DNA from: an uncultured Clostridia bacterium
Lineage (GTDB): Bacteria > Bacillota > Clostridia > Christensenellales > UBA1242
NCBI GenBank assembly: GCA_944362965.1
Contig: CALVTR010000002.1
Location: 80,145 to 144,144 of the forward strand
DNA: 64,000 nucleotides
Direction: 5' to 3'
Part shown: positions 13,737 through 61,550 of the stretch, one piece after another
Layout of the letters: the number at the start of each line of letters is the position of its first letter
Position numbering within the stretch: position 1 is the stretch's first letter
The notes under the pieces: generated by a model
Seen by the model: the letters and a program-made list of their open reading frames with translations, nothing else
The model's database searches: none
Told to the model about the DNA's origin: nothing
Position numbers and translations under genes: made by a program

Positions 13737-15521
13737 TTACTTTAAAACAACCTTTATAAAGCTCTTTTTGCCTTTTTTAAGCAAAATTGAGCCATTTTCA
13801 AAGTCTTTTTCAAATATTTTCAATGAGAAGTCACTTATCTTTTCACCTTTAACAGAGATAGCCCCACCTTGGATAAGGCGTCTTGCCTCGCTCTTAGAAG
13901 GTGCAAGCTTAGTTGCAAACAAAAGGTCACAAATAGGCATCCCATCTTTGAAATCTTCTTTTGAAACTTCAAAAGTTGGAGCATCATCACCACCTTGTGT
14001 GAATAAGTTTTCGCTCATTTCTCTAGCCTTAACGGCATCTTCTTCGCCGCGAACAAATTTTGTTATTTCAAAGCATAGAAGTTTTTTTGCTTTGACTATA
14101 TCTTCTTTGATGAGTGCTCGAACCTTTTCCATTGGCTCATCAGTGAAGAGTGCAAACATCATTTCAACACATGCGTCTGGAGTTTGGTAAATACCTTGAT
14201 AAAAATCATAAGCAGAAATCTTATCTTTATCAATCCATATTGCACCCTTTTCAGTTTTGCCCATCTTTTTACCTTCTGGAGTTAAAAGTAGCGGATTTGT
14301 TGCACCAACCATGTTTCTTTCCTTGCCGTCAGCAAAGCTAAGTTTGCGTGCAAGTTTAACACCTGCTGCGATATTTCCCCATTGGTCTGCGCCGCCCCAT
14401 TCAAGAGAACAACCATACTGCTCATTCAAATGAACAAAGTCATAAGCCTGCATTGGCATGTAACCCATTTCAAAGAAAGTTAGTCCGCCTTCTTTCAAAC
14501 GGTTGTCATAGATTTCGCTTGACATCATTTCATTTACGTTGAAGTATTGACCTATATCACGCATAAAATCAATGTATGTGAGATTTTTAAACCAATCATA
14601 GTTATTGACAATTTCCGCTTTATTTTCGCCTTCAAAATCAAGAAAAACCTTTAAAGTGTCTTTGATTTTATCAATATTTGATTGTATTTGTTCTTTTGAC
14701 ATAAGCTTTCGCATATCACTTTTGCCTGACGGGTCACCGATGCAAGCAGTTGCCCCGCCCATCAAAAGATATACCTTATGCCCTGCCTTTTGGAAGCGTC
14801 TCATAATTACGTATGGCACGCAATGACCTATATGAAGGCTATCTGCGGTTGGGTCAGTTCCTTCATAAACGGCAATAGGTTTTCCGCTCTCAAGCATTTT
14901 TTTGAGAGCATCTTCATCAGTGCATTGGTATAAAAGTCCCCTTTCTTTTAATTCTTTAAACAAATTTGTATCTACTTTCATATTTTTCTCCTTTTCTAAA
15001 TCAAAATCGTATCTATTAAAATCTTCACCGCGAAACTCAATTTTATCTCTTAATTTCCCGTCATTTCGCTCAATACACTTTCTGCTTGCAATATTGCTTG
15101 ATTTGCAAGTTAAAAGCACCTTTTGTATCCCTAGTTTTTTGCATTCTTCTAATGCTAATTTTAATCCTATTGTGGCATAGCCTTTCCCCCTTTCGCTTAG
15201 ACGTATGCCATAACCAATATGCCCGCCAACAGTAGAAAGAAAGTCTGTTGCTATGCTATGTCTTATAGAAATATGTCCTAAAATTCTGTCTTCACCTTTA
15301 CGCTTTAAAAAGAAAACTGACGAAGGCACTCTTCCTTCTTCTAGATTGCGCCCTTCTCTTTCATCCTGCTTTATGTTTAGCCAGCTTTCATAGTCATCAC
15401 CTATTTTAAAATCAAGTGGTTTTGATTCTGGATTTGACTTATGAAATTCGTCTATATATGCAAGCCAATCTTTTTTATCACTTAATGCTGGAAAAGCTAA
15501 AATAAATTTATTTTCTTCCAT
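13737..15521 (-). CDS. tyrS: Tyrosine--tRNA ligase with in-frame N-terminal GNAT acetyltransferase domain
   Basis: Residues 181-594 are a complete TyrRS (LHIGH, KMGKT, C-terminal S4 domain). Residues 1-180 are GNAT-like (GYGIRLSERGKGYATIGLKLALEE). No stop separates them. The internal ATG at 14981 has its own AAGGAG SD 7 nt upstream. Confidence 0.9.
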   Translation of the reverse strand: MEENKFILAFPALSDKKDWLAYIDEFHKSNPESKPLDFKIGDDYESWLNIKQDEREGRNLEEGRVPSSVFFLKRKGEDRILGHISIRHSIATDFLSTVGGHIGYGIRLSERGKGYATIGLKLALEECKKLGIQKVLLTCKSSNIASRKCIERNDGKLRDKIEFRGEDFNRYDFDLEKEKNMKVDTNLFKELKERGLLYQCTDEDALKKMLESGKPIAVYEGTDPTADSLHIGHCVPYVIMRRFQKAGHKVYLLMGGATACIGDPSGKSDMRKLMSKEQIQSNIDKIKDTLKVFLDFEGENKAEIVNNYDWFKNLTYIDFMRDIGQYFNVNEMMSSEIYDNRLKEGGLTFFEMGYMPMQAYDFVHLNEQYGCSLEWGGADQWGNIAAGVKLARKLSFADGKERNMVGATNPLLLTPEGKKMGKTEKGAIWIDKDKISAYDFYQGIYQTPDACVEMMFALFTDEPMEKVRALIKEDIVKAKKLLCFEITKFVRGEEDAVKAREMSENLFTQGGDDAPTFEVSKEDFKDGMPICDLLFATKLAPSKSEARRLIQGGAISVKGEKISDFSLKIFEKDFENGSILLKKGKKSFIKVVLK

Positions 15522-20764: not shown

Positions 20765-22261
20765 TTATTCTATTTCATCGTCTCTATCAAAATAGCTAGC
20801 ACCTTCCACTGGTTTAAGCTTATTGATATCAAAGGCAGCAAAACCTTTTGTTACAAGTTTTTCAAAGTCGCCTTCATAGAAAATGCAAACATCTTCAAAC
20901 TGAGTTTTAAGTTCATTTATCGCATTATCAATGAAGGCTTGTCTGTCTTCTTCTGTTGAGAATTTATTATTGTCTATTGAATAATCATAGCCATTTTTAA
21001 AATATGAACACAAAAATCTTATCAAATGCAAGAAATAGTAGTCACTTTGTTCAATCATATACCTTCTATAACGTGCACTAAGTTCTGCGTCATAGAAATA
21101 TTTTTCTGACTTCATAGGGTCATTACGTTTTACTGAGAACAATGAAAAAGCGTAATTTCTTGGATAAAAGCCTCCCCTGATGTTATGTGAATTAGGATTT
21201 AACATGATGGTTGCATCACCATTAACTCTGTAAACTACCCTATGCTTCAGTTGTTTCTCACCGTTTTTTGTTTCTCTTTCAAATCTTATTTTTCCATTGC
21301 TTTCTACACTTGCAATATGTTGAGATAAGATATCAAGCATTTCCTTTTCGCTAATTTTTTCTACTGGGAACATATCAAGCATATTTGACAAAGTGTTTTT
21401 GAACTTCTGTAGTTTATCATAAGAAATACTGCTTTCAAATTCAGTTGCTTCAGTATGTTCTTCATCTTCATAAACTATTTCATCTTGCAATCTGCGGCGA
21501 ATCTCGCCAAGAGTATCATTGTCAACTTCACCAATATAATTTTTTATTCTTTGTGGAGAAATCACTTTCAAAACTGGAACGAGATAGCTTGTGAGATCGG
21601 TAAATTTGCCAACTTCGTAGCTGTCTTTTTTAAGTTTGTCAGTAAGCGGAACACAATAATATACGCATTTATTTTTACTTCTACCAATTATCACGACCGG
21701 TCTTTCGCCGCCAAACTCTTCTCCAACAACAGGATTTAGATCTGCAAAGTATACGCCCTTTATCTTAATCTCTCTATCTTTTCTGTAATAGCGATTTTCA
21801 ATCATTTTGAACTCAACATGGTTGCCTATTTGCACATGTCCCATTTTAGCTAGCAGTCTGCACCTTGCGTCAGCTTTTACCATATTTTCCCATTCTTCAA
21901 TACGAGTGCTATATAGCGACTTTATTAAGGCTTCCTGTATTTGTTTCCCTGCTTCTTCGGCAAGCTTTTCAAATTCTTCCTTTAAAGTGCCAATTTCGGT
22001 ATACTTGCTTGCTATATAGTCAACAAGCGTCCTTTTAAGTTTTGTCTCTAGGGTTTTATTTCCGCATTGAATGTAAATCTCATTATTATATAACTTTAAA
22101 AGCACATTCTCTTTGCTGTGCGTGTCTTGAACTGTAAGTATAATTTGGCTGCTATCTGGCTTTAATTTTTCAAAAGACAACACGTCATACCCTTTCTTAA
22201 ATACCTTAAGAAAAGGAACCTTTAGTTCTTCTAAATCTAGACATATTTTAAAATCACTCAT
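20765..22261 (-). CDS. Large multidomain protein with an embedded MazF/PemK-like domain
   Basis: 498 aa. Residues about 165-275 read KGVYFADLNPVVGEEFGGERPVVIIGRSKN...VISPQRIKNYIGEVDNDTLGEIRRRL, parallel to the canonical MazF at 8942..9289. The flanking domains of roughly 165 aa (N-terminal) and 220 aa (C-terminal) are unassigned. Confidence 0.7.
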   Translation of the reverse strand: MSDFKICLDLEELKVPFLKVFKKGYDVLSFEKLKPDSSQIILTVQDTHSKENVLLKLYNNEIYIQCGNKTLETKLKRTLVDYIASKYTEIGTLKEEFEKLAEEAGKQIQEALIKSLYSTRIEEWENMVKADARCRLLAKMGHVQIGNHVEFKMIENRYYRKDREIKIKGVYFADLNPVVGEEFGGERPVVIIGRSKNKCVYYCVPLTDKLKKDSYEVGKFTDLTSYLVPVLKVISPQRIKNYIGEVDNDTLGEIRRRLQDEIVYEDEEHTEATEFESSISYDKLQKFKNTLSNMLDMFPVEKISEKEMLDILSQHIASVESNGKIRFERETKNGEKQLKHRVVYRVNGDATIMLNPNSHNIRGGFYPRNYAFSLFSVKRNDPMKSEKYFYDAELSARYRRYMIEQSDYYFLHLIRFLCSYFKNGYDYSIDNNKFSTEEDRQAFIDNAINELKTQFEDVCIFYEGDFEKLVTKGFAAFDINKLKPVEGASYFDRDDEIE

Positions 22262-24411: not shown

Positions 24412-24808
24412 TGGTGGAGACGGCGGGAATTGAACCCGCTTCCGAAAAACTTGTTTAAAACTTTTCTACATGTTTAGTTTATGTTATTTTTTAATTATTA
24501 ACCCGAACATAAACAAAATTAAGTTAATAACTAGCCTTTGTTTTTATAAATAGAGTCAAGGCTTTTTCTATTTACAGAGCACCGCTTAAACCCTTAGAGC
24601 AACTTGGTGAAATTGCAATGGGTTGATTGAAAATTGTTCAATCGTGATTTTTTTGTGTTCGATTAGGCAGCGTAAGCTAAGCTTGCATTGTCCATACGAA
24701 CAACTTTGTTTTCGTTTGCGTTTATTTGCGCGTGTCCTTTTTAGGTGTAGACTCACCACATGCTTTACATTTTAACCAATGCTCCCCGTCGAAACCAATA
24801 ACGCCCCC
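24412..24808 (-). ncRNA. ssrA: tmRNA (SsrA)
   Basis: The minus strand starts GGGGGCGTTATTGGTTTCGACGGGGA and ends GGGAATTGAACCCGCCGTCTCCACCA. A candidate tag frame reads ..ANENKVVRMDNASLAYAA-stop. It lies directly downstream of smpB. Confidence 0.9.
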
Positions 24809-24823: not shown

Positions 24824-25264
24824 TTACCTTTTAAGCACTCGGTCAAGGTCCCTCTGGACTGCCCTTTCCTTTAGAACCTGTCTCTTATCATAAAGTTTTT
24901 TACCTTTCGCAAGTCCTATTTCAACCTTAGCTTTTCCGCCGCTCATATATACCTTTGTTGGCACTATTGAGTAGCCTTTTTCTAAGGTCTTACGTTCAAG
25001 TGAAAGGATTTCAGCCTTATGTAAGAGTAACTTCCTTGTTCGCTTTGTCTCACTGTCAAGGTGACTTGAATTTTCAGTAGGTGCAATATAGCAATTTCTT
25101 AAATACGCTTGCCCGTCTTTTATGACAACATAGCTGTCACTGAGACTAATCTTGCCCTTACTTACTGATTTAATCTCACCGCCTTTCAGCTCGATGCCGG
25201 CTTCAAGTAAGTCTGAAACGAAGAAATTATGGTAGGCTTTTTTATTATTAGTCAGTATCCTCAT
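24824..25264 (-). CDS. smpB: SsrA-binding protein SmpB
   Basis: NKKAYHNFFVSDLLEAGIELKGGEIKS... and a KRQVLKERAVQRD tail. The start at the internal Met (25264) is preferred. Confidence 0.9.
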   Translation of the reverse strand: MRILTNNKKAYHNFFVSDLLEAGIELKGGEIKSVSKGKISLSDSYVVIKDGQAYLRNCYIAPTENSSHLDSETKRTRKLLLHKAEILSLERKTLEKGYSIVPTKVYMSGGKAKVEIGLAKGKKLYDKRQVLKERAVQRDLDRVLKR

Positions 25265-25552
25265 CTCGTCTCCTATTATAACACTGATTGCAATGATTTT
25301 CAATACCCTATTTAAAAAAAATTGATAAAATGTTAAATTTTTTGCAATTTTCTTTAAAAAAACGAGTAAAAATCACTTTTTTTCGACTTTTTAGCATAAA
25401 AAACATAAATTTTGGAAATTTTTATCTTTGCCATTATGTATTTATACGTTCACTTATATTTTACACTATTTTTAAAATAAAATATACTTTTTTCAAAAGA
25501 AAAATATAAAAAACTTGAATTAAATGTCGGAAGTGGGTTCTGTGGATTAATA

Positions 25553-47766: not shown

Positions 47767-48471
47767 ATGAAAATTACGATAGTGGGCAACCATTGCACCT
47801 GGACAAAAGAGTTGTCAACAAGCTATATTCTTAATGACGACACCCTTATCGACGTTCCGCAAGGCTCTTTTAAAACACTTTATAACGATTATGATTTAAG
47901 CAAAATTGAAAATATATTTATCACTCATTTCCATAGCGACCATTTTTCTGATATCCACTATGTTATTGATATATTTGATAAAAAACAAGATAAAAAGTTG
48001 AATATTTTGGCACCTAAGGGTTGCAAAGAGAGAATGGTTCAGCTGTTTAAAATATTGGAAGTTTCTTATCTTGAAAAATATTTAGATGACAATGTGACAT
48101 TCTATGATTGTGAAAATGGAAAGACTTGCAAGATAGGCAAATATAAAATAAAAATATATAAAGTCACACACAAAAATCTTGATGCGTATGGTTTTGTGAT
48201 TGACGATGGAAAAGTAAAAATAGGTTTTTCTGGAGACAGCTGCATGTGCAATAGTTTGCATAAGATATTAAAACATTCAAAGGCAGCTTTTATTGATTGT
48301 GCATCTACGCATATAAATAACAGCCATTTGACTGTAGATGAAGTAGTTTCACTTCAAAATGAATATAAAGACGTTCTTTTATATCCTGTTCATTTTTCTG
48401 CAAACTCTGAAAGTGCGGCACAAAAAACAAACCTTGCAAGAACTTTTCCAGGACAAATTATAGAAATATAA
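47767..48471 (+). CDS. MBL-fold hydrolase (RNase Z-like)
   Basis: HFHSDH motif. It lies 22 nt downstream of the glycosyltransferase gene. Confidence 0.7.
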   Translation: MKITIVGNHCTWTKELSTSYILNDDTLIDVPQGSFKTLYNDYDLSKIENIFITHFHSDHFSDIHYVIDIFDKKQDKKLNILAPKGCKERMVQLFKILEVSYLEKYLDDNVTFYDCENGKTCKIGKYKIKIYKVTHKNLDAYGFVIDDGKVKIGFSGDSCMCNSLHKILKHSKAAFIDCASTHINNSHLTVDEVVSLQNEYKDVLLYPVHFSANSESAAQKTNLARTFPGQIIEI

Positions 48472-51569: not shown

Positions 51570-52408
51570 AATTTTAATCCCCTTGCCCCACATGGCAATA
51601 CAATTTTTTCATCAGTTGGAAGCCCTATTTCGTCAGCGTCAATATTGCCTTCGTCGAAGATAAGCGTCAATATATTTTTAAGCACGCTTGCCTGCAAGCC
51701 TGTTGTGTAAGATGAGATAAGCACAAAGAGTGGTTTATCTGAAAGAACCTTTTTTGTCAGTTCTACAAAATCATATAAGTTGTCTTCGAGCTTCCACATC
51801 TCGCCATTTGTTCCACGCCCATAACTTGGCGGGTCCATGATGATTGCGTCATAGAAGTTGCCGCGTCTTATCTCCCGCTCTACAAACTTTTGGCAGTCGT
51901 CAATGATATAGCGTATATTTGTGATGCCGTTGAGAGTGGCATTCTCTTTCGCACGCTCCACCATGCCCTTACTTGCGTCAACATGAGTAACTGACGCCCC
52001 AGCCTTAGCACAAACAACACTTGCCGCACCTGTGTAGGCAAATAAATTTAGCACCTTAATTGGTCTGTTAGCTTCTTTTATAGCCTTCATTATATCATTC
52101 CAATTTACCGCTTGTTCTGGGAAGAGCCCTGTATGTTTGAAGCCCATTGGTTTTATTATAAACTTTATTCCCTTCCAACTTATTTGCCAAGTCTCTGGAA
52201 CGTGGTGCAAAAACTGCCAACTTCCACCACCTGAAGATGAACGTTTATAATGTCCATCAAGATTTTTATATTTTGCTAGGTCCTGTTTTGCATGCCATAT
52301 AACCTGCGGGTCTGGGCGAAGCAAGGTAAACTCTCCCCACTTCTCAAGCTTTTCGCCATCACCTGTTGCAATCACTTTATAATCTTTCCAATCGTTTGCT
52401 ATTTTCAT
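51560..52408 (-). CDS. Class I SAM-dependent RNA methyltransferase (RlmI/RlmK-like)
   Basis: VLNLFAYTGAASV SAM motif I and IIMDPPSYGRG motif IV. Confidence 0.75.
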   Translation of the reverse strand: MKIANDWKDYKVIATGDGEKLEKWGEFTLLRPDPQVIWHAKQDLAKYKNLDGHYKRSSSGGGSWQFLHHVPETWQISWKGIKFIIKPMGFKHTGLFPEQAVNWNDIMKAIKEANRPIKVLNLFAYTGAASVVCAKAGASVTHVDASKGMVERAKENATLNGITNIRYIIDDCQKFVEREIRRGNFYDAIIMDPPSYGRGTNGEMWKLEDNLYDFVELTKKVLSDKPLFVLISSYTTGLQASVLKNILTLIFDEGNIDADEIGLPTDEKIVLPCGARGLKLWK

Positions 52409-52540
52409 AAAAAATCCCTTACGTTAAGTATAACAAAATAATATCTTTTTATCAATTATTTTTAACTACTTTTTAACTTTTGATATTGACACGGGATGAT
52501 ATTTATGTTATAACAAATATGGATAAAAAAAGGAGAAATT

Positions 52541-53215
52541 ATGACAAACGACAATATTACAATGACTATGTTTGAGCTTTATTCAAAGTATCGTGATGGA
52601 GAATTAAGTTTGGAAAGAGCTTCATATTTTATTAAAAAACTTGATGACATTCGTCATGACAAGAAGATTTCAGATTTATTTGATAATAAACAAGATTTAT
52701 TTGATATTGTCAATATTCATTGCAATGAAATTGACATACTTTTTGATGCAAGTGACAATTATAAAACTACAGCTCTTGAAGAAGAAAACAAAGGAAAAGT
52801 TATATGTGACATCTTCTTTAAAAAAGAAGGAAAGAATCATCTTTTCTTAGGCAGATTTGTAAACGTTGACGCAGACACTGCCCGTGCGATTAAAAACTTT
52901 TTGAGAAATGGTATATATGCACCACATATTTTTAGCTATGATTATGACAATCAAAGATTTGATAGAGAGCGCTTCTCTAAGTTATCAAATAAAGGGCTTA
53001 TGCAATACAAAGATTACATTGATTCAAATATCGACTGCCTTACTGAAGTGACATGCATATCTGAAAGTAGTGACGCCCTACGTGATGACATCAAAAAAGG
53101 TATAGTTGAGGCTTGGAGAAGAAATATGATACAAAGTCATCTTGATTATCGACTTACCGCCTATGAAAGGGCTTGTGAAATTGAAAATGGTGATGGTGAA
53201 GACGAGAGAGAATAA
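52541..53215 (+). CDS. Paralog 1 of an uncharacterised tandem family
   Basis: 224 aa. It shares the N-terminal pattern (..ELYSKYRDGELS..YFIKKLD), a central FFKKEGKN..LG block and an acidic tail (ENGDGEDERE) with the next three ORFs. Confidence 0.65.
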   Translation: MTNDNITMTMFELYSKYRDGELSLERASYFIKKLDDIRHDKKISDLFDNKQDLFDIVNIHCNEIDILFDASDNYKTTALEEENKGKVICDIFFKKEGKNHLFLGRFVNVDADTARAIKNFLRNGIYAPHIFSYDYDNQRFDRERFSKLSNKGLMQYKDYIDSNIDCLTEVTCISESSDALRDDIKKGIVEAWRRNMIQSHLDYRLTAYERACEIENGDGEDERE

Positions 53216-54466
53216 CAAAGGAGAAATTTATGGAAATAGACAATATCAAATTTGCAATGCTTGGAATTTATGATAAGTATAAGCAAGGAAAAATCAGTCA
53301 AGAAGTGGCAGAATATTTTGTATCTCATCTTGATAGCGTGCAAAGAAAAAATGGCGTGCAAAATTTATCACAAGTCATCTATGATTATGAACATGCTGAA
53401 ATTGGTATAAGTTTTGCAACAGTCGGCAAGCCATACATCTTTGAAGAAGAAAATAGCAAACTTGTTCGTGAGCTATTCTTTATGGATCAAGGCGAAAAAT
53501 ACCCTATCTATCTTGGTGATATAATTAAGCTTAATAAAAATGTTGAAAATAGACTTGAATACTTTTTAGAGCAAGGTGTTTATTACCCAAGTGTTCAAGC
53601 TTTTCATTGGGGTGAAACCGACTTGGAAAATGACAAGCGAAGATTTAGACTATTGCCAATGGAAGAGCTAAAGAAATATAGAAAATATATAAACGACCTT
53701 ATTAATAGTCGTAGCGTTATGAAATTTGGTAAAGACTGCCCTTACCATATTGAGCAAAAGAGATTTGAAGCTGAAATGTTTACAAAATGGCAAGTATATA
53801 TGTTAAACAGACCAATGCTTTATAGAATTGATGCTTACAATCTTATTGATAGAAGCGAGGCTGAAAGAAATAAAATTGACGAAAACGGAGATGGCGAGAG
53901 AGAATAACAAAGGAGAAATTTATGGAAATAGACAATATCAAATTTGCAATGCTTGGAATTTATGATAAGTATAAGCAAGGAAAAATCAGTCAAGAAGTGG
54001 CAGAATATTTTGTATCTCATCTTGATAGCGTGCAAAGAAAAAATGGCGTGCAAAATTTATCACAAGTCATCTATGATTATGAACATGCTGAAATTGGTAT
54101 AAGTTTTGCAACAGTCGGCAAGCCATACATCTTTGAAGAAGAAAATAGCAAACTTGTTCGTGAGCTATTCTTTATGGATCAAGGCGAAAAATACCCTATC
54201 TATCTTGGTGATATAATTAAGCTTAATAAAAATGTTGAAAATAGACTTGAATACTTTTTAGAGCAAGGTGTTTATTACCCAAGTGTTCAAGCTTTTCATT
54301 GGGGTGAAACCGACTTGGAAAATGACAAGCGAAGATTTAGACTATTGCCAATGGAAGAGCTAAAGAAATATAGAAAATATATAAACGACCTTATTAATAG
54401 TCGTAGCGTTATGAAATTTGGTAAAGACTGCCCTTACCATATTGAGCAAAAGAGATTTGAAGCTGA
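53203..54466 (+). repeat. Direct tandem duplication, 692-bp period
   Basis: Positions 53203..53774 appear identical by eye to 53895..54466 (572 bp, including RBS AAAGGAGAAATTT and 181 codons). The copies diverge from 53775/54467 onward, with a short re-matching patch. Confidence 0.8.
53230..53907 (+). CDS. Paralog 2 of the tandem family
   Basis: 225 aa. The first 185 aa are identical to paralog 3. The tail reads ..FTKWQVYMLNRPMLYRIDAYNLIDRSEAERNKIDENGDGERE. Confidence 0.65.
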   Translation: MEIDNIKFAMLGIYDKYKQGKISQEVAEYFVSHLDSVQRKNGVQNLSQVIYDYEHAEIGISFATVGKPYIFEEENSKLVRELFFMDQGEKYPIYLGDIIKLNKNVENRLEYFLEQGVYYPSVQAFHWGETDLENDKRRFRLLPMEELKKYRKYINDLINSRSVMKFGKDCPYHIEQKRFEAEMFTKWQVYMLNRPMLYRIDAYNLIDRSEAERNKIDENGDGERE

Positions 54467-54599
54467 GATGGTTGAAGAATGGCAAAAATATATGATAAAA
54501 AATCAAATGGCTTATAGAATTGATGCTTACAATCTTATTGGCAGAAACGAGGCTGAAAGCGAAGAAACGAGCGAAATTGGTGATGACGAGCGAGAATAA
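53922..54599 (+). CDS. Paralog 3 of the tandem family
   Basis: 225 aa. The tail reads ..VEEWQKYMIKNQMAYRIDAYNLIGRNEAESEETSEIGDDERE. Confidence 0.65.
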   Translation: MEIDNIKFAMLGIYDKYKQGKISQEVAEYFVSHLDSVQRKNGVQNLSQVIYDYEHAEIGISFATVGKPYIFEEENSKLVRELFFMDQGEKYPIYLGDIIKLNKNVENRLEYFLEQGVYYPSVQAFHWGETDLENDKRRFRLLPMEELKKYRKYINDLINSRSVMKFGKDCPYHIEQKRFEAEMVEEWQKYMIKNQMAYRIDAYNLIGRNEAESEETSEIGDDERE

Positions 54600-54830
54600 A
54601 TTTGACTTCTAAATATCAGCAGTGATTTTGACAAATTACATAATTAAATAAAAATGACATAAAATAACAAAAAAATCAGCAAAAAAATAGAAAAATTGCT
54701 GATTTTTTATTTTAATTATTTTTTGATTAAGACTGATTTTTTATTATTTCCTGAATTATTTTTATTGTTAAGTATAAGTATTTGACTTTTAATAAATTAT
54801 TTTATAAAATATTATTATACAAGGGGGAAA

Positions 54831-55475
54831 ATGAAAAATATTAACAACATTAAAATAGCAATTATGGAGCTTTTTGACAAAGCACAAAAAGGTGAAATAA
54901 AGGAACGCGTTGCCGTTTATTTTATAGAGCATCTCGACGCCATCACAACTGAGCCGAATGAACTTTTGAAATCTTATTCTCGCACACGAGTGCTTACAAA
55001 TAAAAATATTTCTGATATCGTTGAATATTTAGTGCCTGAACTTGTTTTTGAAGATGACAGAAAGGGAAAGTTTTATCTTAATGAAAATAAGCAAGCTGAA
55101 AATGCTAGAGAAATTTTGTTTATGAAGGACGGAAAAAACTATATCTATCTTGGCTCACTTATTGATATCGACGAGGACATAACAAAAGAAATATATTTAA
55201 ATATTGCAAAAGCAAATGAGTCCCCTTCTCTTTATAGGCAAGTGCATGATGACAAGGCTTTATTTGATACGCTCGATAAAAAATATATTGATAAATATCA
55301 AAAATTCATAGAAAAAAATTTGCGTTGCTTAAGTGCGATTGTAAATAAAGATAAAGAAAAAACATATCAAAACCTTTTAAATGAGCTTACCAAAAAACTT
55401 GAAAAACGTGACTTGACACACCGAATTGAAATCATTGAAAATTTGAGAAACAATGATGATAAGGAAACAAAATAA
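54831..55475 (+). CDS. Paralog 4 of the tandem family (most divergent)
   Basis: 214 aa. It begins NNIKIAIMELFDKAQKGEIKERVAVYFIEHLDA and has a LFMKDGKNYIYLGS core. Confidence 0.6.
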   Translation: MKNINNIKIAIMELFDKAQKGEIKERVAVYFIEHLDAITTEPNELLKSYSRTRVLTNKNISDIVEYLVPELVFEDDRKGKFYLNENKQAENAREILFMKDGKNYIYLGSLIDIDEDITKEIYLNIAKANESPSLYRQVHDDKALFDTLDKKYIDKYQKFIEKNLRCLSAIVNKDKEKTYQNLLNELTKKLEKRDLTHRIEIIENLRNNDDKETK

Positions 55476-55536: not shown

Positions 55537-55568
55537 AAAAAATCAGCTTTAATTTAAGCTGATTTTTT
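55537..55568. terminator. Bidirectional rho-independent terminator
   Basis: aaaaaatcagctt-taattt-aagctgatttttt between convergent genes. Confidence 0.7.
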
Positions 55569-55577
55569 CGTTAATAA

Positions 55578-56480
55578 TTATAAAACAAAGAATAATATTA
55601 TAACAACAACCGAGATTGCAAGTTCTATATAGACCATTTTCTTTGATTTTGCAAAATTTTTTGCTATTTGCTTTCTCACTTCAGGCATTTTTGCATTATC
55701 ACCTATACATATTTCACATTCATTTTTGAACTGATTATAGTCATTTTTATAAATGCTTCTATATTTTTCTGAGTCATAACCTGAATAAACTTGTTCAAAC
55801 TTAAAATTTTTATATAAAGAATGATTTTTTGTTGGAATGAGCAGCGAGCCTATAAATGAAACTAACACTAAAATAGCAGTTGAAATTAGTGGGATTATAT
55901 AGTCATTTGAAAAGTCAAAAGGTAAAATATCTAATTTGCTTAGCACAAAAAACACAGCTGACAAGATTATACCTATTATTAAACTTATGCTTAATGATGG
56001 CACTATTTTTCTTATATTATCTTTTTGAACAAGCGTATCATATCGTGCTGGAAGGTTGCCAAGAAAATTCTCTATTTCCCTGAAAAGCTGATTTTTGCCA
56101 ATATCAAGGGATGAAGAATTTATATCTATCCTTTTCTGAGTGGCATATATGGACAATGATTCAAATTTATTATCATTGCTTGCACTAACATAGATATCAA
56201 ACTCCTTTATTGATTTAGCTGAAGTTTTTATGTTGTCTTTAAACCATTCCGGGTCGTTCTTTTCTTTTATTGTTTCATTGTTGTTTAGGGTTAGAGAATA
56301 TGTTATGTCGGCATATACATTCTTGGCAAAATAATATTCACCTTTTGCCTTTGCAGTTTTTTCTTTACTACGCTCTTCTTCTTGAAGAGCTTTCACATCT
56401 TTATAATAGGATTCAATGATATTAACAAGTTCAATAATATTTTCCTGCGTCAATATCTTGTTTGTAAACTTTTTCTCCAT
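55578..56480 (-). CDS. Membrane protein (soluble N-domain, 2 central TM, C-terminal TM; unknown)
   Basis: 300-aa ORF with hydrophobic segments at about 165-185, 200-220 and 280-300. It is convergent with the paralog array. Confidence 0.55.
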   Translation of the reverse strand: MEKKFTNKILTQENIIELVNIIESYYKDVKALQEEERSKEKTAKAKGEYYFAKNVYADITYSLTLNNNETIKEKNDPEWFKDNIKTSAKSIKEFDIYVSASNDNKFESLSIYATQKRIDINSSSLDIGKNQLFREIENFLGNLPARYDTLVQKDNIRKIVPSLSISLIIGIILSAVFFVLSKLDILPFDFSNDYIIPLISTAILVLVSFIGSLLIPTKNHSLYKNFKFEQVYSGYDSEKYRSIYKNDYNQFKNECEICIGDNAKMPEVRKQIAKNFAKSKKMVYIELAISVVVIILFFVL

Positions 56481-60021: not shown

Positions 60022-60275
60022 ATCTAACAAAAAGCCCATTAAGTTACAAGAACCTAATGGGCCAAACCACTTGTAATCTTATAGCCGAGCAAACACTCGC
60101 CCCTTCTATAACGGGAAGTCCCGACAATTTTTACACAAGAATTTATAAAAAATATCCTTTTTCAAAATTGCAACTCCGAAAGTGATAATTTTTAAGCCTT
60201 TCTATTGCCTTCCACCACAAACGGCAACTCTCTGGATGAACCTAACTTAAAAACCTTGTCTTTCATCAACGCTTT
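60022..60275 (-). promoter_or_regulatory. T-box riboswitch leader (probable Ile specifier AUC)
   Basis: The minus strand shows GTTGATGAAAGACAAG, CCAGAGAGTTGCC..GGTGGAAGGCAA, the specifier-region triplet AUC (AAAUUAUCACUU), a degenerate T-box AAGTGGTTTGGCCC and the terminator gcccattaggtt-N6-aacttaatgggc plus TTTTTG. Confidence 0.65.
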
Positions 60276-60374
60276 TATTATTACTAAACATTATTTATTT
60301 TAGTCACTTAAAACACATTTGTCAATAAATTTTATCTATTTTTAGGGAAAAGAGATGGTATCATCTCTAATTAT

Positions 60375-61278: not shown

Positions 61279-61550
61279 AAACCGAGATAGATGGAGAGTT
61301 AGCGGTGCTCTGTAACCCACAATCCGCTATAGTGGGATTGAACGCTTGTGTGCGGTTTGATTTTGTCAAATATGTGTATGGGCTTTAGGTGAGGAAATCA
61401 AGGTCTTATGCAATCAAAATCTTTGAACCATGTCAGAGCCTGACGGCAGCATCATTAAGGAGACACTTTGGTGTGCCATAAGGTAGCTTTGGTGGAGCTT
61501 AAAGTTTGTGAGGCAGTTGGTGAAATCTTATCAAGCCAAGTTCTCGGTCC
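61279..61550 (+). ncRNA. ffs: Signal recognition particle RNA, large Bacillus type with Alu domain
   Basis: AGCGGTGCTCTGTAACCCACAATCCGCTATAGTGGGATTGAAC resembles the B. subtilis scRNA Alu domain. The GAACCATGTCAG...GGCAGCATCATTAAGG segment resembles domain IV. The 5' ACCGAGA pairs with the 3' TCTCGGT. Confidence 0.85.

What the first reader, a model, noticed from the sequence alone, without database searches (positions are those of the whole stretch)
52541..55475. Four-gene tandem array of an uncharacterised paralog family with a perfect 572-bp duplication and mosaic C-termini
Four consecutive same-strand ORFs of 214-225 aa share an N-terminal motif (NIK-AM-ELYDKY--G-IS-E-A-YF---LD), a central (F)F-K/D-G-K-Y-LG block and acidic tails (ENGDGEDERE, ENGDGERE, IGDDERE). 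Paralogs 2 and 3 are identical at DNA level for 572 bp including the RBS (period 692 bp). They then diverge, re-match for about 28 nt (TATAGAATTGATGCTTACAATCTTATTG) and diverge again. This mosaic indicates recombination or gene conversion that preserves the body and diversifies the last 40 residues. None has a signal peptide or TM segment. Tandem arrays of small diversifying cytoplasmic proteins are typical of immunity-protein or anti-defence cassettes, but no toxin gene is adjacent. The convergent 300-aa membrane protein (55578-56480) is the only uncharacterised neighbour.
Basis: partly seen in the sequence, partly recalled or inferred. Interest (0 to 1): 0.7.

Follow-up and report, generated by a model that had tools for sequence, protein, structure and literature searches.

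The report
Recombining orphan paralog array in Clostridia
Four neighbouring genes encode an unnamed protein family, found only at one fixed chromosomal spot in a small group of uncultured gut-type Clostridia, whose middle two copies swap DNA blocks between each other and between strains; what the proteins do is still unknown.

Summary
Four same-strand ORFs lie at the stated coordinates. A perfect 572-bp repeat (53203-53774 = 53895-54466, period 692) joins paralogs 2 and 3, with a 29-nt re-match in the tails.

The family is a true orphan. Pfam, NCBIfam, PADLOC, PHROGs and the PDB give no match. There are about 40 clusters in 5.8 billion proteins. Two confident AlphaFold models have no fold neighbour.

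Nearly every member sits in one slot, methyltransferase | array | IleRS, in a narrow clade of uncultured Clostridia. Arrays hold one to four copies of three old subtypes.

An independent assembly of the same strain lineage shows that the tandem pair is real. The tails are stable and position-specific. The gene bodies are what gets exchanged and homogenised, and at least four modules reassort (Rmin 5).

Paralogs 2 and 3 are 50-100 times more variable than their flanks. They vary in copy number and are broken by two independent null mutations in other strains.

No toxin, secretion, phage or plasmid link was found, and the neighbouring membrane protein is unrelated cargo. An immunity-like binding role is my favoured reading (about 0.35) but is unproven.

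The parts
52486..52514 (+). Promoter of the par1-par2-par3 unit: -35 TTGACA (52486-52491), 17-nt spacer with TG at 52506-52507, -10 TATAAC (52509-52514). The RBS AAGGAG lies at 52530-52535.
   Evidence: Sequence read. The TTGACA and extended -10 are conserved at the same place in six other species (alignment A3). Function is inferred from the consensus, not shown.
52541..53215 (+). par1, 224 aa, alpha subtype (deep, diverse grade). Acidic (pI 5.0). Ends ...ENGDGEDERE.
   Evidence: AlphaFold pLDDT 87.6, pTM 0.84. Only 1 nt differs from L005.
53230..53907 (+). par2, 225 aa, beta subtype, tail type 2 (helix WQVYMLNRPMLY, linker ...ENGDGERE).
   Evidence: AlphaFold pLDDT 85.4, pTM 0.80. 4.9% nt divergence from L005 against about 0.1% in the flanks.
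53922..54599 (+). par3, 225 aa, beta subtype, tail type 3 (helix WQKYMIKNQMAY, linker ...EIGDDERE).
   Evidence: 10.3% nt divergence from L005, mostly an alternative middle cassette in L005.
53203..53774 (+). First copy of the perfect 572-bp repeat: ERE-stop of par1, RBS, and codons 1-181 of par2.
53895..54466 (+). Second copy of the perfect 572-bp repeat: ERE-stop of par2, RBS, and codons 1-181 of par3.
   Evidence: Read as a gene-conversion tract because the tails are 22% diverged and are shared with L005.
53820..53848 (+). 29-nt identity island inside the diverged tails. It encodes YRIDAYNLI, which includes the family-invariant Arg. Its partner lies at 54512-54540. It is a candidate 3' homology block.
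   Evidence: R204 is invariant in A4/A5.
54659..54719 (+). Terminator-like hairpin after par3 (arms 54659-54682 and 54696-54719, followed by a T-run).
   Evidence: Inverted repeat I9; sequence read. Function is inferred.
54782..54810 (+). par4's own promoter-like site: TTGACT, 17 nt, TAAAAT.
   Evidence: Function is inferred.
54831..55475 (+). par4, 214 aa, gamma subtype. It is the conserved member (0 nt differences from L005; 86-90% aa identity to sister species) and has no terminal ERE.
55537..55568 (.). Hairpin between the convergent par4 and the 300-aa gene. It looks like a bidirectional terminator.
   Evidence: 13-pair stem.
55578..56480 (-). Neighbour, not part of the system. It is an orphan 300-aa protein with three TM-like stretches, inserted between the array and IleRS in this species only.

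Best explanation
The array is a vertically inherited, lineage-restricted set of an orphan protein family. It occupies one fixed chromosomal slot, divergent from a SAM-methyltransferase/RluA/PepF block and convergent with IleRS. The hosts are a narrow clade of uncultured Clostridia.

The family has three old subtypes: alpha (par1), beta (par2 and par3) and gamma (par4). Different lineages keep one to four copies.

Shown at the DNA level:
- The two beta genes are a 692-bp tandem pair.
- The pair undergoes unequal crossing-over, giving one or two copies.
- Gene conversion within a genome homogenises the bodies. The window's 572-bp identity is such a tract.
- Old, diverged allele blocks are imported from other strains or species, so at least four protein modules reassort.
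- The two tails stay as stable, position-specific alleles.
- The shared ERE-stop/RBS/5' block and the 29-nt YRIDAYNLI island are the likely homology blocks for these exchanges.

Inferred at the protein level:
- The proteins are soluble, acidic and non-enzymatic. They form a compact alpha+beta domain with no known fold relative.
- In the alpha and beta subtypes a disordered acidic tail ends in a conserved (D/E)ERE peptide, which would dock a partner.
- The variable modules lie in loops, a hairpin and the C-terminal helices, where they could set binding specificity.

My favoured functional reading is an immunity-like neutralising or recognition protein in some between-organism conflict. Gamma would be the conserved member and beta the dispensable, exchangeable specificity member.

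Confidence is about 0.9 for the locus description and recombination mechanism, and about 0.35 for the immunity-like function. The figure reported for this explanation is the functional one.
For: Orphan status:
- No Pfam, NCBIfam, PADLOC or PHROGs match.
- No PDB sequence hit at E<=10.
- 29 clusters in 5.8 billion proteins and 13 in 1.84 billion representatives.
- No source gives a name.

Fold:
- pLDDT 85.4 with pTM 0.80, and pLDDT 87.6 with pTM 0.84.
- The best Foldseek E-values are 0.5-1 and TM is at most 0.25 against the PDB and BFVD.

Fixed slot.

Subtypes.

Recombination:
- Divergence from L005 is 4.9% and 10.3% in par2 and par3. It is 0-0.3% in the flanks, apart from 0.86% in the adjacent methyltransferase, and 0 in par4.
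- The block pattern is and module reassortment.
- 1388 of 4095 site pairs show all four gametes, and Rmin is 5.
- A one-unit deletion or hybrid copy occurs in L021.

Old alleles under purifying selection: dS is 0.13-0.86 and dN/dS 0.09-0.36 in the body blocks.

Dispensability of beta: a shared 2-bp frameshift in L020 and L024, and a nonsense codon in L023.

Fast evolution: the family is 32-45% identical where the flanks are 63-88% identical.

Non-enzymatic look: the invariant residues are L, D, F, L, (L), I and R only.

The terminal ERE is a protein-level constraint. It is kept where no downstream gene follows: par3, L001 and P0033.

Analogy: the esaG and tipC immunity arrays evolve by recombination between tandem paralogues through homology blocks (PMC9484751).
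Against: - No toxin, T7SS, LXG, Rhs or CdiA gene, phage gene or mobile-element gene lies in the 64-kb window or in any syntenic locus.
- The family is not on phages, plasmids or viral contigs.
- Every lineage keeps at least one copy at the same housekeeping-flanked slot behind a near-consensus sigma-A promoter. That looks more like a clade-specific core gene than an accessory conflict gene.
- The sister species has an invariant two-gene array in 23 contigs.
- dN/dS is below 1 everywhere except the par2/par3 tail pair (0.9, from only 30 differences).
- Hypervariability could be a mechanical by-product of having two tandem copies.
- Function has not been tested in any way.
Confidence: 0.35

Rival explanations
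1. The family is a clade-specific, non-conflict cytoplasmic protein, such as an adaptor, chaperone or regulator that docks through its acidic ERE tail. It has been duplicated in some lineages. The beta pair is redundant, so it drifts, recombines and decays. The mosaic is then a neutral consequence of tandem duplication plus ordinary homologous recombination.
For: - At least one intact copy sits at the same housekeeping-flanked slot in every lineage.
- A near-consensus sigma-A promoter is conserved.
- Purifying selection: dN/dS 0.09-0.36.
- par1 and par4 are invariant between strains.
- The array is stable in the sister species.
- No conflict-type neighbours.
- Beta pseudogenes fit redundancy.
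Against: - The family diverges far faster than all its flanks: 32-45% against 63-88% identity.
- Allele blocks with dS up to 0.86 sit in strains whose flanks differ by about 0.1%, so imports are retained specifically in these two genes.
- Dimorphic middle and helix cassettes are shared across species. That is more than drift of a redundant copy would predict.
- Which subtype is retained differs between lineages.
Confidence: 0.3
2. The family is a stand-alone phage-sensing or abortive-infection type defence protein, or a decoy. Its variable surface modules recognise phage proteins. It is chromosomally fixed rather than carried in a defence island.
For: - Modular hypervariability, copy-number change and loss of beta.
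- Low GC3, like accessory genes.
- Constitutive-looking promoter.
Against: - No PADLOC match.
- No effector domain or conserved catalytic-type residues.
- No neighbouring defence genes.
- A 25-kDa binder alone has no obvious way to kill or protect.
Confidence: 0.1
3. The perfect 572-bp identity, or the whole duplication, is an assembly artefact. Possible causes are a collapsed bubble or consensus of two different bodies, or two co-occurring strains stitched in tandem.
For: - The source looks like a metagenome-type assembly.
- A 572-bp exact repeat is longer than short-read k-mers.
- Related strains do differ between the two bodies.
Against: - The tandem order par2(tail 2)-par3(tail 3) was assembled independently in L005 and L020 from other samples.
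- The repeat graph has a single path that uses both tails.
- L005 also has a 240-nt stretch identical between its two copies with a different allele, so homogenisation is a recurrent real feature.
- The window's allele is not a mix of the L005 alleles.
Confidence: 0.1
4. The ORFs are decaying or non-functional remnants with no cellular role.
For: - Orphan status.
- Low GC3.
- Null alleles of beta in three assemblies.
Against: - Full-length intact ORFs are kept in all lineages over divergence that brings identity down to about 30%, with dN/dS well below 1.
- The predicted fold is confident and consistent for two subtypes.
- The promoter, RBS and terminal motif are conserved.
Confidence: 0.03

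Closest known systems
esaG (DUF600) and tipC tandem immunity-gene strings of the type VII secretion system in Staphylococcus and Streptococcus (Garrett et al. 2022, Microb Genom, PMC9484751)
   Same: - Strings of non-identical, same-strand paralogs encode small cytoplasmic proteins at a fixed chromosomal place.
- Conserved sequence blocks at the 5' and 3' ends of the genes mediate recombination between paralogs.
- That recombination gives hybrid genes and gain or loss of whole units between closely related strains (here; abstract read).
   Different: - No sequence or fold relation to DUF600 or TipC.
- No T7SS genes or toxin next to the array or anywhere in the 64 kb.
- Only one to four copies.
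- The family is confined to one small clade, and three deeply diverged subtypes co-exist.
- Immunity function has not been shown.
Orphan immunity-gene islands of polymorphic toxin systems (SUKH/SMI1-KNR4 and other Imm families; acquired interbacterial defence clusters of Bacteroidales). These are recalled from my own knowledge and were not read here.
   Same: - Arrays of small, fast-evolving, non-enzymatic cytoplasmic proteins can be kept without the cognate toxin.
- Variability between strains.
   Different: - Those families are broadly distributed, often lie on mobile elements, and are recognisable by Pfam.
- This family has no Pfam match, no mobile-element context, and a strictly syntenic, vertically inherited position.
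Concerted evolution of tandem or duplicated bacterial genes by gene conversion (textbook cases such as tufA/tufB and rRNA operons; from my own knowledge)
   Same: Copies are identical within a genome but differ between genomes: cols 61-300 in both strains, and the 572-bp tract in the window.
   Different: - Here conversion stops short of the tails, which stay distinct.
- Conversion co-exists with import of diverged cassettes and with pseudogenisation, so the outcome is diversification as well as homogenisation.

Membership tests
T7SS-associated tandem immunity arrays (EsaG/DUF600, TipC) | Sequence or structural homology to DUF600/EsaG or TipC | tested here: not met
   No Pfam hit for any of 22 members. 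No PDB sequence hit. No Foldseek hit for two models.
T7SS-associated tandem immunity arrays (EsaG/DUF600, TipC) | Array lies beside T7SS core genes or an LXG/EsaD/TelC-type toxin | tested here: not met
   The flanks are a methyltransferase, RluA, PepF and IleRS in every locus. No such gene occurs among ORFs of 150 aa or more in the 64-kb window. The rest of the genome could not be searched.
T7SS-associated tandem immunity arrays (EsaG/DUF600, TipC) | Strings of non-identical tandem paralogs whose number varies between strains | tested here: met
   One to four copies across lineages. One or two beta copies within the species.
T7SS-associated tandem immunity arrays (EsaG/DUF600, TipC) | Recombination between paralogs through conserved homology blocks | tested here: met
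   Block pattern, hybrid L021 copy, module reassortment, Rmin 5. The shared 5' block and the 29-nt island are.
T7SS-associated tandem immunity arrays (EsaG/DUF600, TipC) | Protein binds and neutralises a cognate toxin | not testable with these tools
   Needs co-expression or binding assays. No candidate toxin was identified.
Polymorphic-toxin immunity superfamilies (SUKH/SMI1-KNR4, Pfam Imm families) | Profile match to a described immunity family | tested here: not met
   Pfam and NCBIfam scans were negative at E<=1 to 10.
Polymorphic-toxin immunity superfamilies (SUKH/SMI1-KNR4, Pfam Imm families) | Genomic linkage to a toxin gene with a polymorphic C-terminal domain | tested here: not met
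   None in any of the roughly 20 loci with flanks.
Known anti-phage defence systems (PADLOC-DB v2) | HMM match to a component of a known or candidate system | tested here: not met
   Zero hits for all four paralogs and for the membrane neighbour.
Phage anti-defence proteins | Encoded by phages, prophages or other mobile elements | tested here: not met
   No tblastn hit in 50,697 phage or 72,556 plasmid records. None on IMG/VR contigs. No BFVD fold match. PHROGs gave only chance-level hits.
   The family stays unassigned.

The most novel reading that the evidence does not exclude
The family is the specificity component of a conflict system that has not yet been described. It would be a new-fold cytoplasmic protein whose exchangeable surface cassettes (hairpin, middle loop, C-terminal helix) recognise a polymorphic foreign protein, either an inter-bacterial toxin of an unknown class or a phage factor. 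Its conserved C-terminal (D/E)ERE peptide would couple it to a host partner. The array would diversify by cassette exchange between tandem copies and between species.
Probability: 0.15. Interest if true: 0.75.

Novelty: new variant of a known kind. Interest (0 to 1): 0.42.

Why it matters
If the immunity-like reading is right, this would be a new protein fold used for recognition in bacterial conflict. It would be carried by poorly known, uncultured Clostridia, and it would point to an unidentified toxin or phage factor circulating in their habitat.

Whatever the function, the locus is a clean, small natural example of several processes at once: concerted evolution, cassette import and gene loss acting on a tandem pair while the neighbouring paralogs stay frozen. 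That makes it useful for studying how tandem paralogs diversify.

It is also a caution for annotation. In this sample the 'variable tail' was the stable part.

The practical impact is limited for now by the narrow taxonomic range and the lack of any functional handle.

Tried and rejected
1. Curated family assignment. Pfam, NCBIfam, PADLOC and PHROGs were run on the four paralogs, and Pfam on 22 diverse members. Only scattered chance-level hits appeared and none recurred.

2. PDB by sequence profile: nothing at E<=10.

3. Fold search with two independent confident models against the PDB, and with one against BFVD: nothing below E=0.5, TM at most 0.25. AlphaFold DB was not available.

4. N-terminal HTH idea. 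It was prompted by 'ISQEVAEYF' and by the chimeric ORF P0037 with an XRE-like start. I rejected it because both models make residues 24-41 one continuous helix.

5. Terminal ERE as a DNA-level constraint from the downstream RBS. I rejected it because the motif is kept where no gene follows.

6. The 300-aa membrane protein as toxin or partner. I rejected it because it is absent from the slot in other species, and its few homologs sit in unrelated contexts without the family.

7. Hidden extra family members in the window or near the membrane-protein homologs: none by HMM on six-frame ORFs.

8. RNA elements in the array: none. Only the IleRS T-box was found.

9. Tandem Repeats Finder: no call, because the 692-bp period exceeds its 500-bp limit.

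10. A wider profile re-search and the JGI metagenome scan found no new relatives or contexts.

11. Habitat or taxon from sample accessions in the literature: no paper found.
Full report
**1. Observation.**
The four ORFs are at the stated coordinates on the + strand: 52541-53215 (224 aa, 'par1'), 53230-53907 (225 aa, 'par2'), 53922-54599 (225 aa, 'par3') and 54831-55475 (214 aa, 'par4'). A base-by-base comparison at offset 692 gives one perfect run of exactly 572 bp, 53203-53774 = 53895-54466. It begins in the last 13 nt of the preceding gene (the ERE-stop codons), runs through the RBS and covers codons 1-181.

The quoted 28-mer is present at 53821 and 54513, inside an exact 29-nt run. All 30 differences between par2 and par3 lie in the last 133 of 678 nt, with a chance of about 10^-21 under a uniform spread.

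The proteins are homologous, at 25-30% identity between par1, par2/3 and par4. They are acidic (pI 5.0-6.0) and hydrophilic, with no TM or signal-like segment.

**2. An orphan family with a confident but unmatched fold.**
- Pfam, NCBIfam, PADLOC and PHROGs give nothing beyond chance for the four proteins. A Pfam scan of 22 diverse members shows no recurrent weak hit.
- A profile search of PDB sequences finds nothing at E<=10.
- The word-indexed search of 5.8 billion proteins finds 29 clusters.
- The exhaustive HMMER search of 1.84 billion representatives finds 13.
- A re-search with the most diverse profile adds none.
- No source names any member.
- AlphaFold2 gives confident, mutually consistent alpha+beta models for par2 (pLDDT 85.4, pTM 0.80) and par1 (87.6, 0.84). 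The last 4-16 residues are disordered.
- Foldseek finds no neighbour in the PDB or BFVD; the best E is 0.5-1 and TM is at most 0.25. AlphaFold DB could not be searched.
- Family-wide invariant residues are L34, D35, F93, L103, I160 and R204, plus L148 in A5. This is a structural rather than a catalytic set.
- The alpha and beta subtypes, including the most distant members, end in a variable-length acidic linker and a conserved terminal (D/E)ERE. Par4-type proteins do not. The motif persists where no gene follows, so it is a protein-level constraint.

**3. One fixed chromosomal slot in a narrow clade.**
Only 4 of 185,579 species-representative genomes hold the family, and all four are uncultured Clostridia MAGs. 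In every locus with enough flank the order is PepF - RluA-type pseudouridine synthase - class I SAM methyltransferase | array | IleRS. The array is divergent from the methyltransferase and convergent with IleRS.

The single exception is P0035, which lies among NifS-like, SLT, SIMPL, GNAT, MBL and two Spo0A_C-only genes.

Array content differs by lineage:
- alpha only (L016/L017);
- beta only (L001);
- beta + gamma (L002, L003 and 23 contigs of that species);
- alpha + alpha' + gamma (L010-L013);
- alpha + beta (+ beta) + gamma (the window's species).

A neighbour-joining tree makes gamma and beta monophyletic and alpha a deep grade.

A TTGACA, 17-nt spacer and TGnTATAAT-type promoter is conserved upstream of the first array gene in all species. 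A hairpin follows par3. Par4 has its own promoter-like site and ends at a hairpin shared with the convergent gene.

The family is not on phages, plasmids or viral contigs. The rest of the 64-kb window is ordinary chromosome: DnaD/DnaI-like genes, TyrRS, RNase R, SmpB and tmRNA, DinB, GlmS, GlmM, ABC transporters. There are no T7SS, LXG, Rhs, CdiA or phage genes among ORFs of 150 aa or more.

**4. What the mosaic really is.**
L005, from a different sample, is the same strain-level lineage, 99.0% identical over 11.4 kb. It carries the same par1, par4, 300-aa gene and IleRS.

Differences per gene between the window and L005:

| gene | differences |
|---|---|
| PepF | 1 of 1845 nt |
| methyltransferase | 7 of 815 nt |
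| IleRS | 3 of 3132 nt |
| par1 | 1 |
| par4 | 0 |
| all intergenic regions | 0 |
| par2 | 34 (4.9%) |
| par3 | 71 (10.3%) |

The site pattern of the four beta copies resolves into blocks:
- Cols 1-60: window par2 = window par3 = L005 par3, and L005 par2 differs.
- Cols 61-300: the two copies are identical within each genome but differ between genomes. This is concerted evolution.
- Cols 301-420: L005 par3 carries a 42%-identical alternative cassette with a 6-nt insertion (…YEPLSLSNTPVERKFELE…).
- Cols 541-684 (the tails): window par2 = L005 par2 and window par3 = L005 par3, both at 100%.

So the duplication predates the split of these strains and the tails are stable positional alleles. The window's 572-bp identity is best read as a later conversion tract.

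Among 23 beta proteins and alleles, the N-terminal, hairpin (52-78), middle (104-137), helix (180-200) and linker (205-225) modules reassort. The middle and helix modules are each dimorphic across species. Eight beta copies from five assemblies give 91 informative sites, 1388 of 4095 four-gamete-incompatible pairs, and Rmin = 5.

Body blocks have dS 0.13-0.86 with dN/dS 0.09-0.36. These are old alleles under purifying selection, imported rather than newly mutated. The par2/par3 tail pair has dN/dS 0.9 on few sites.

**5. Copy-number change and loss.**
Assemblies that share an identical par4 protein carry different arrays:
- 224/225/225/214 aa (the window);
- 224/225/227/214 aa (L005);
- 224/225/214 aa (L021). 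This is exactly one 692-bp unit fewer, with a hybrid body and tail 3.

Some arrays have a broken beta gene. A 2-bp deletion is shared by L020 copy 2 and L024, which come from two independent samples. A GAA-to-TAA nonsense codon occurs in L023, where the broken gene is the only beta copy.

Beta is therefore dispensable in this species, while par1 and par4 are invariant. These are low-coverage metagenome assemblies, but the frameshift recurs across samples, which argues against random error.

**6. Rates.**
In L010 the flanking proteins are 63-88% identical to the window's. The family members are 32-35% (alpha) and 44% (gamma) identical. In L002/L003 the flanks are 79-95%, beta 65-76% and gamma 86-90%. 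GC3 of the array (0.25-0.28) is below that of the flanks (0.35-0.40).

**7. The membrane neighbour.**
The 300-aa ORF (55578-56480, - strand) has three TM-like stretches and is itself an orphan with 5 clusters. It occupies the array-IleRS gap only in the window's species. L002, L003 and L010-13 have nothing there, and L001 has a 1069-aa secreted repeat protein instead. Its distant homologs lie in unrelated contexts with no family member nearby. It is cargo at an insertion-prone gap, not a partner.

**8. Interpretation.**
Shown:
- the family is real, coding and conserved in fold;
- it is restricted to one slot in one clade;
- the beta pair evolves by unequal crossing-over, gene conversion within a genome and import of diverged cassettes;
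- beta is dispensable.

Inferred:
- the proteins are non-enzymatic binders;
- the loop, hairpin and helix cassettes could set specificity;
- the ERE tail docks a partner.

The evolutionary behaviour matches the esaG/tipC T7SS immunity arrays, which recombine through homology blocks (PMC9484751). Membership fails on homology and on toxin or T7SS linkage.

My weights are:
- an immunity-like or conflict-recognition role, about 0.35;
- a clade-specific non-conflict adaptor with a redundant, drifting beta pair, about 0.30;
- a stand-alone phage sensor, about 0.10;
- an assembly artefact for the perfect identity only, about 0.10;
- junk, about 0.03.

The anti-defence (phage-derived) reading is disfavoured.

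**9. Verdict.**
The feature is real and was accurately observed. It is a new protein family behaving like a known kind of locus, a recombining tandem paralog array, with function unresolved. It is interesting mainly as a clean case of mosaic and concerted evolution and as an unmatched predicted fold. Its narrow taxonomic range and the lack of any functional anchor keep the score moderate (0.42).

Noticed in passing
window 55578-56480 (-); L041 5656-6555: The 300-aa protein with three TM-like stretches is itself an orphan (5 clusters in 5.8 billion). One distant homolog (P0051) sits in a same-strand cluster with MerR, DUF7675/DUF6508 and an ADP-ribosylglycohydrolase gene, which could be a defence or mobile island.
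   Followed up: partly
L001 10781-13990 (-): In a related species the gap between the array and IleRS holds a 1069-aa secreted repeat-rich protein instead of the 300-aa gene. The gap looks like an insertion hotspot for accessory genes.
   Followed up: partly
window 20765-22261 (-): A 498-aa ORF has a PemK/MazF-like toxin domain only at residues 170-259 (E=4.5e-10). This is far longer than a normal MazF of about 110 aa, so it is either a fusion or an over-extended ORF call.
   Followed up: no
window 13737-15521 (-): The tyrosyl-tRNA synthetase carries an N-terminal GNAT acetyltransferase domain (residues 51-153), which is an unusual fusion.
   Followed up: no
window 60044-60278 (-): A T-box leader lies upstream of IleRS. 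It scores 67.8 bits (E=1.9e-13), below Rfam's gathering score of 93, so the default scan missed it.
   Followed up: yes
window 47767-48471 (+); L010 4961-5665; L016 1636-2340: The conserved 234-aa MBL-fold gene upstream of PepF has orthologs that carry precomputed hits to PF23023 (Anti-Pycsar_Apyc1, a cyclic-nucleotide phosphodiesterase family). My own Pfam scan at E<=1e-5 listed only Lactamase_B_2 and Lactamase_B for the window copy.
   Followed up: partly
L020 1399-2080; L024 2535-3149; L023 3586-4269: All three inactivated beta copies carry the alternative middle cassette plus tail 3. The identical 2-bp deletion (AATAAAAA[TG]TTG) appears in two independent samples.
   Followed up: yes
P0037 (79 aa); P0027 (186 aa): Two short chimeric ORFs appear in public assemblies. 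One has an XRE-HTH-like N-terminus joined to family residues 23-62 at the shared 'QEVAEYF'. The other has family residues 1-125 joined to an unrelated tail. They are probably chimeric contigs or rearrangements.
   Followed up: no
L038 3365-7570: The only family member outside the conserved slot (P0035) lies between two genes that encode just the Spo0A C-terminal DNA-binding domain (139 and 130 aa).
   Followed up: no
window 51594-52408: The methyltransferase next to the array shows 7 of 815 nt differences from L005, several times the 0.05-0.35% seen in the other flanking genes. This may be the edge of a recombination tract.
   Followed up: no
window 24412-24808 (-), 24824-25303 (-), 61282-61547 (+): tmRNA lies directly beside smpB, and a large-type SRP RNA is also present. 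These are ordinary housekeeping RNAs, and no prophage is visible at the tmRNA.
   Followed up: partly
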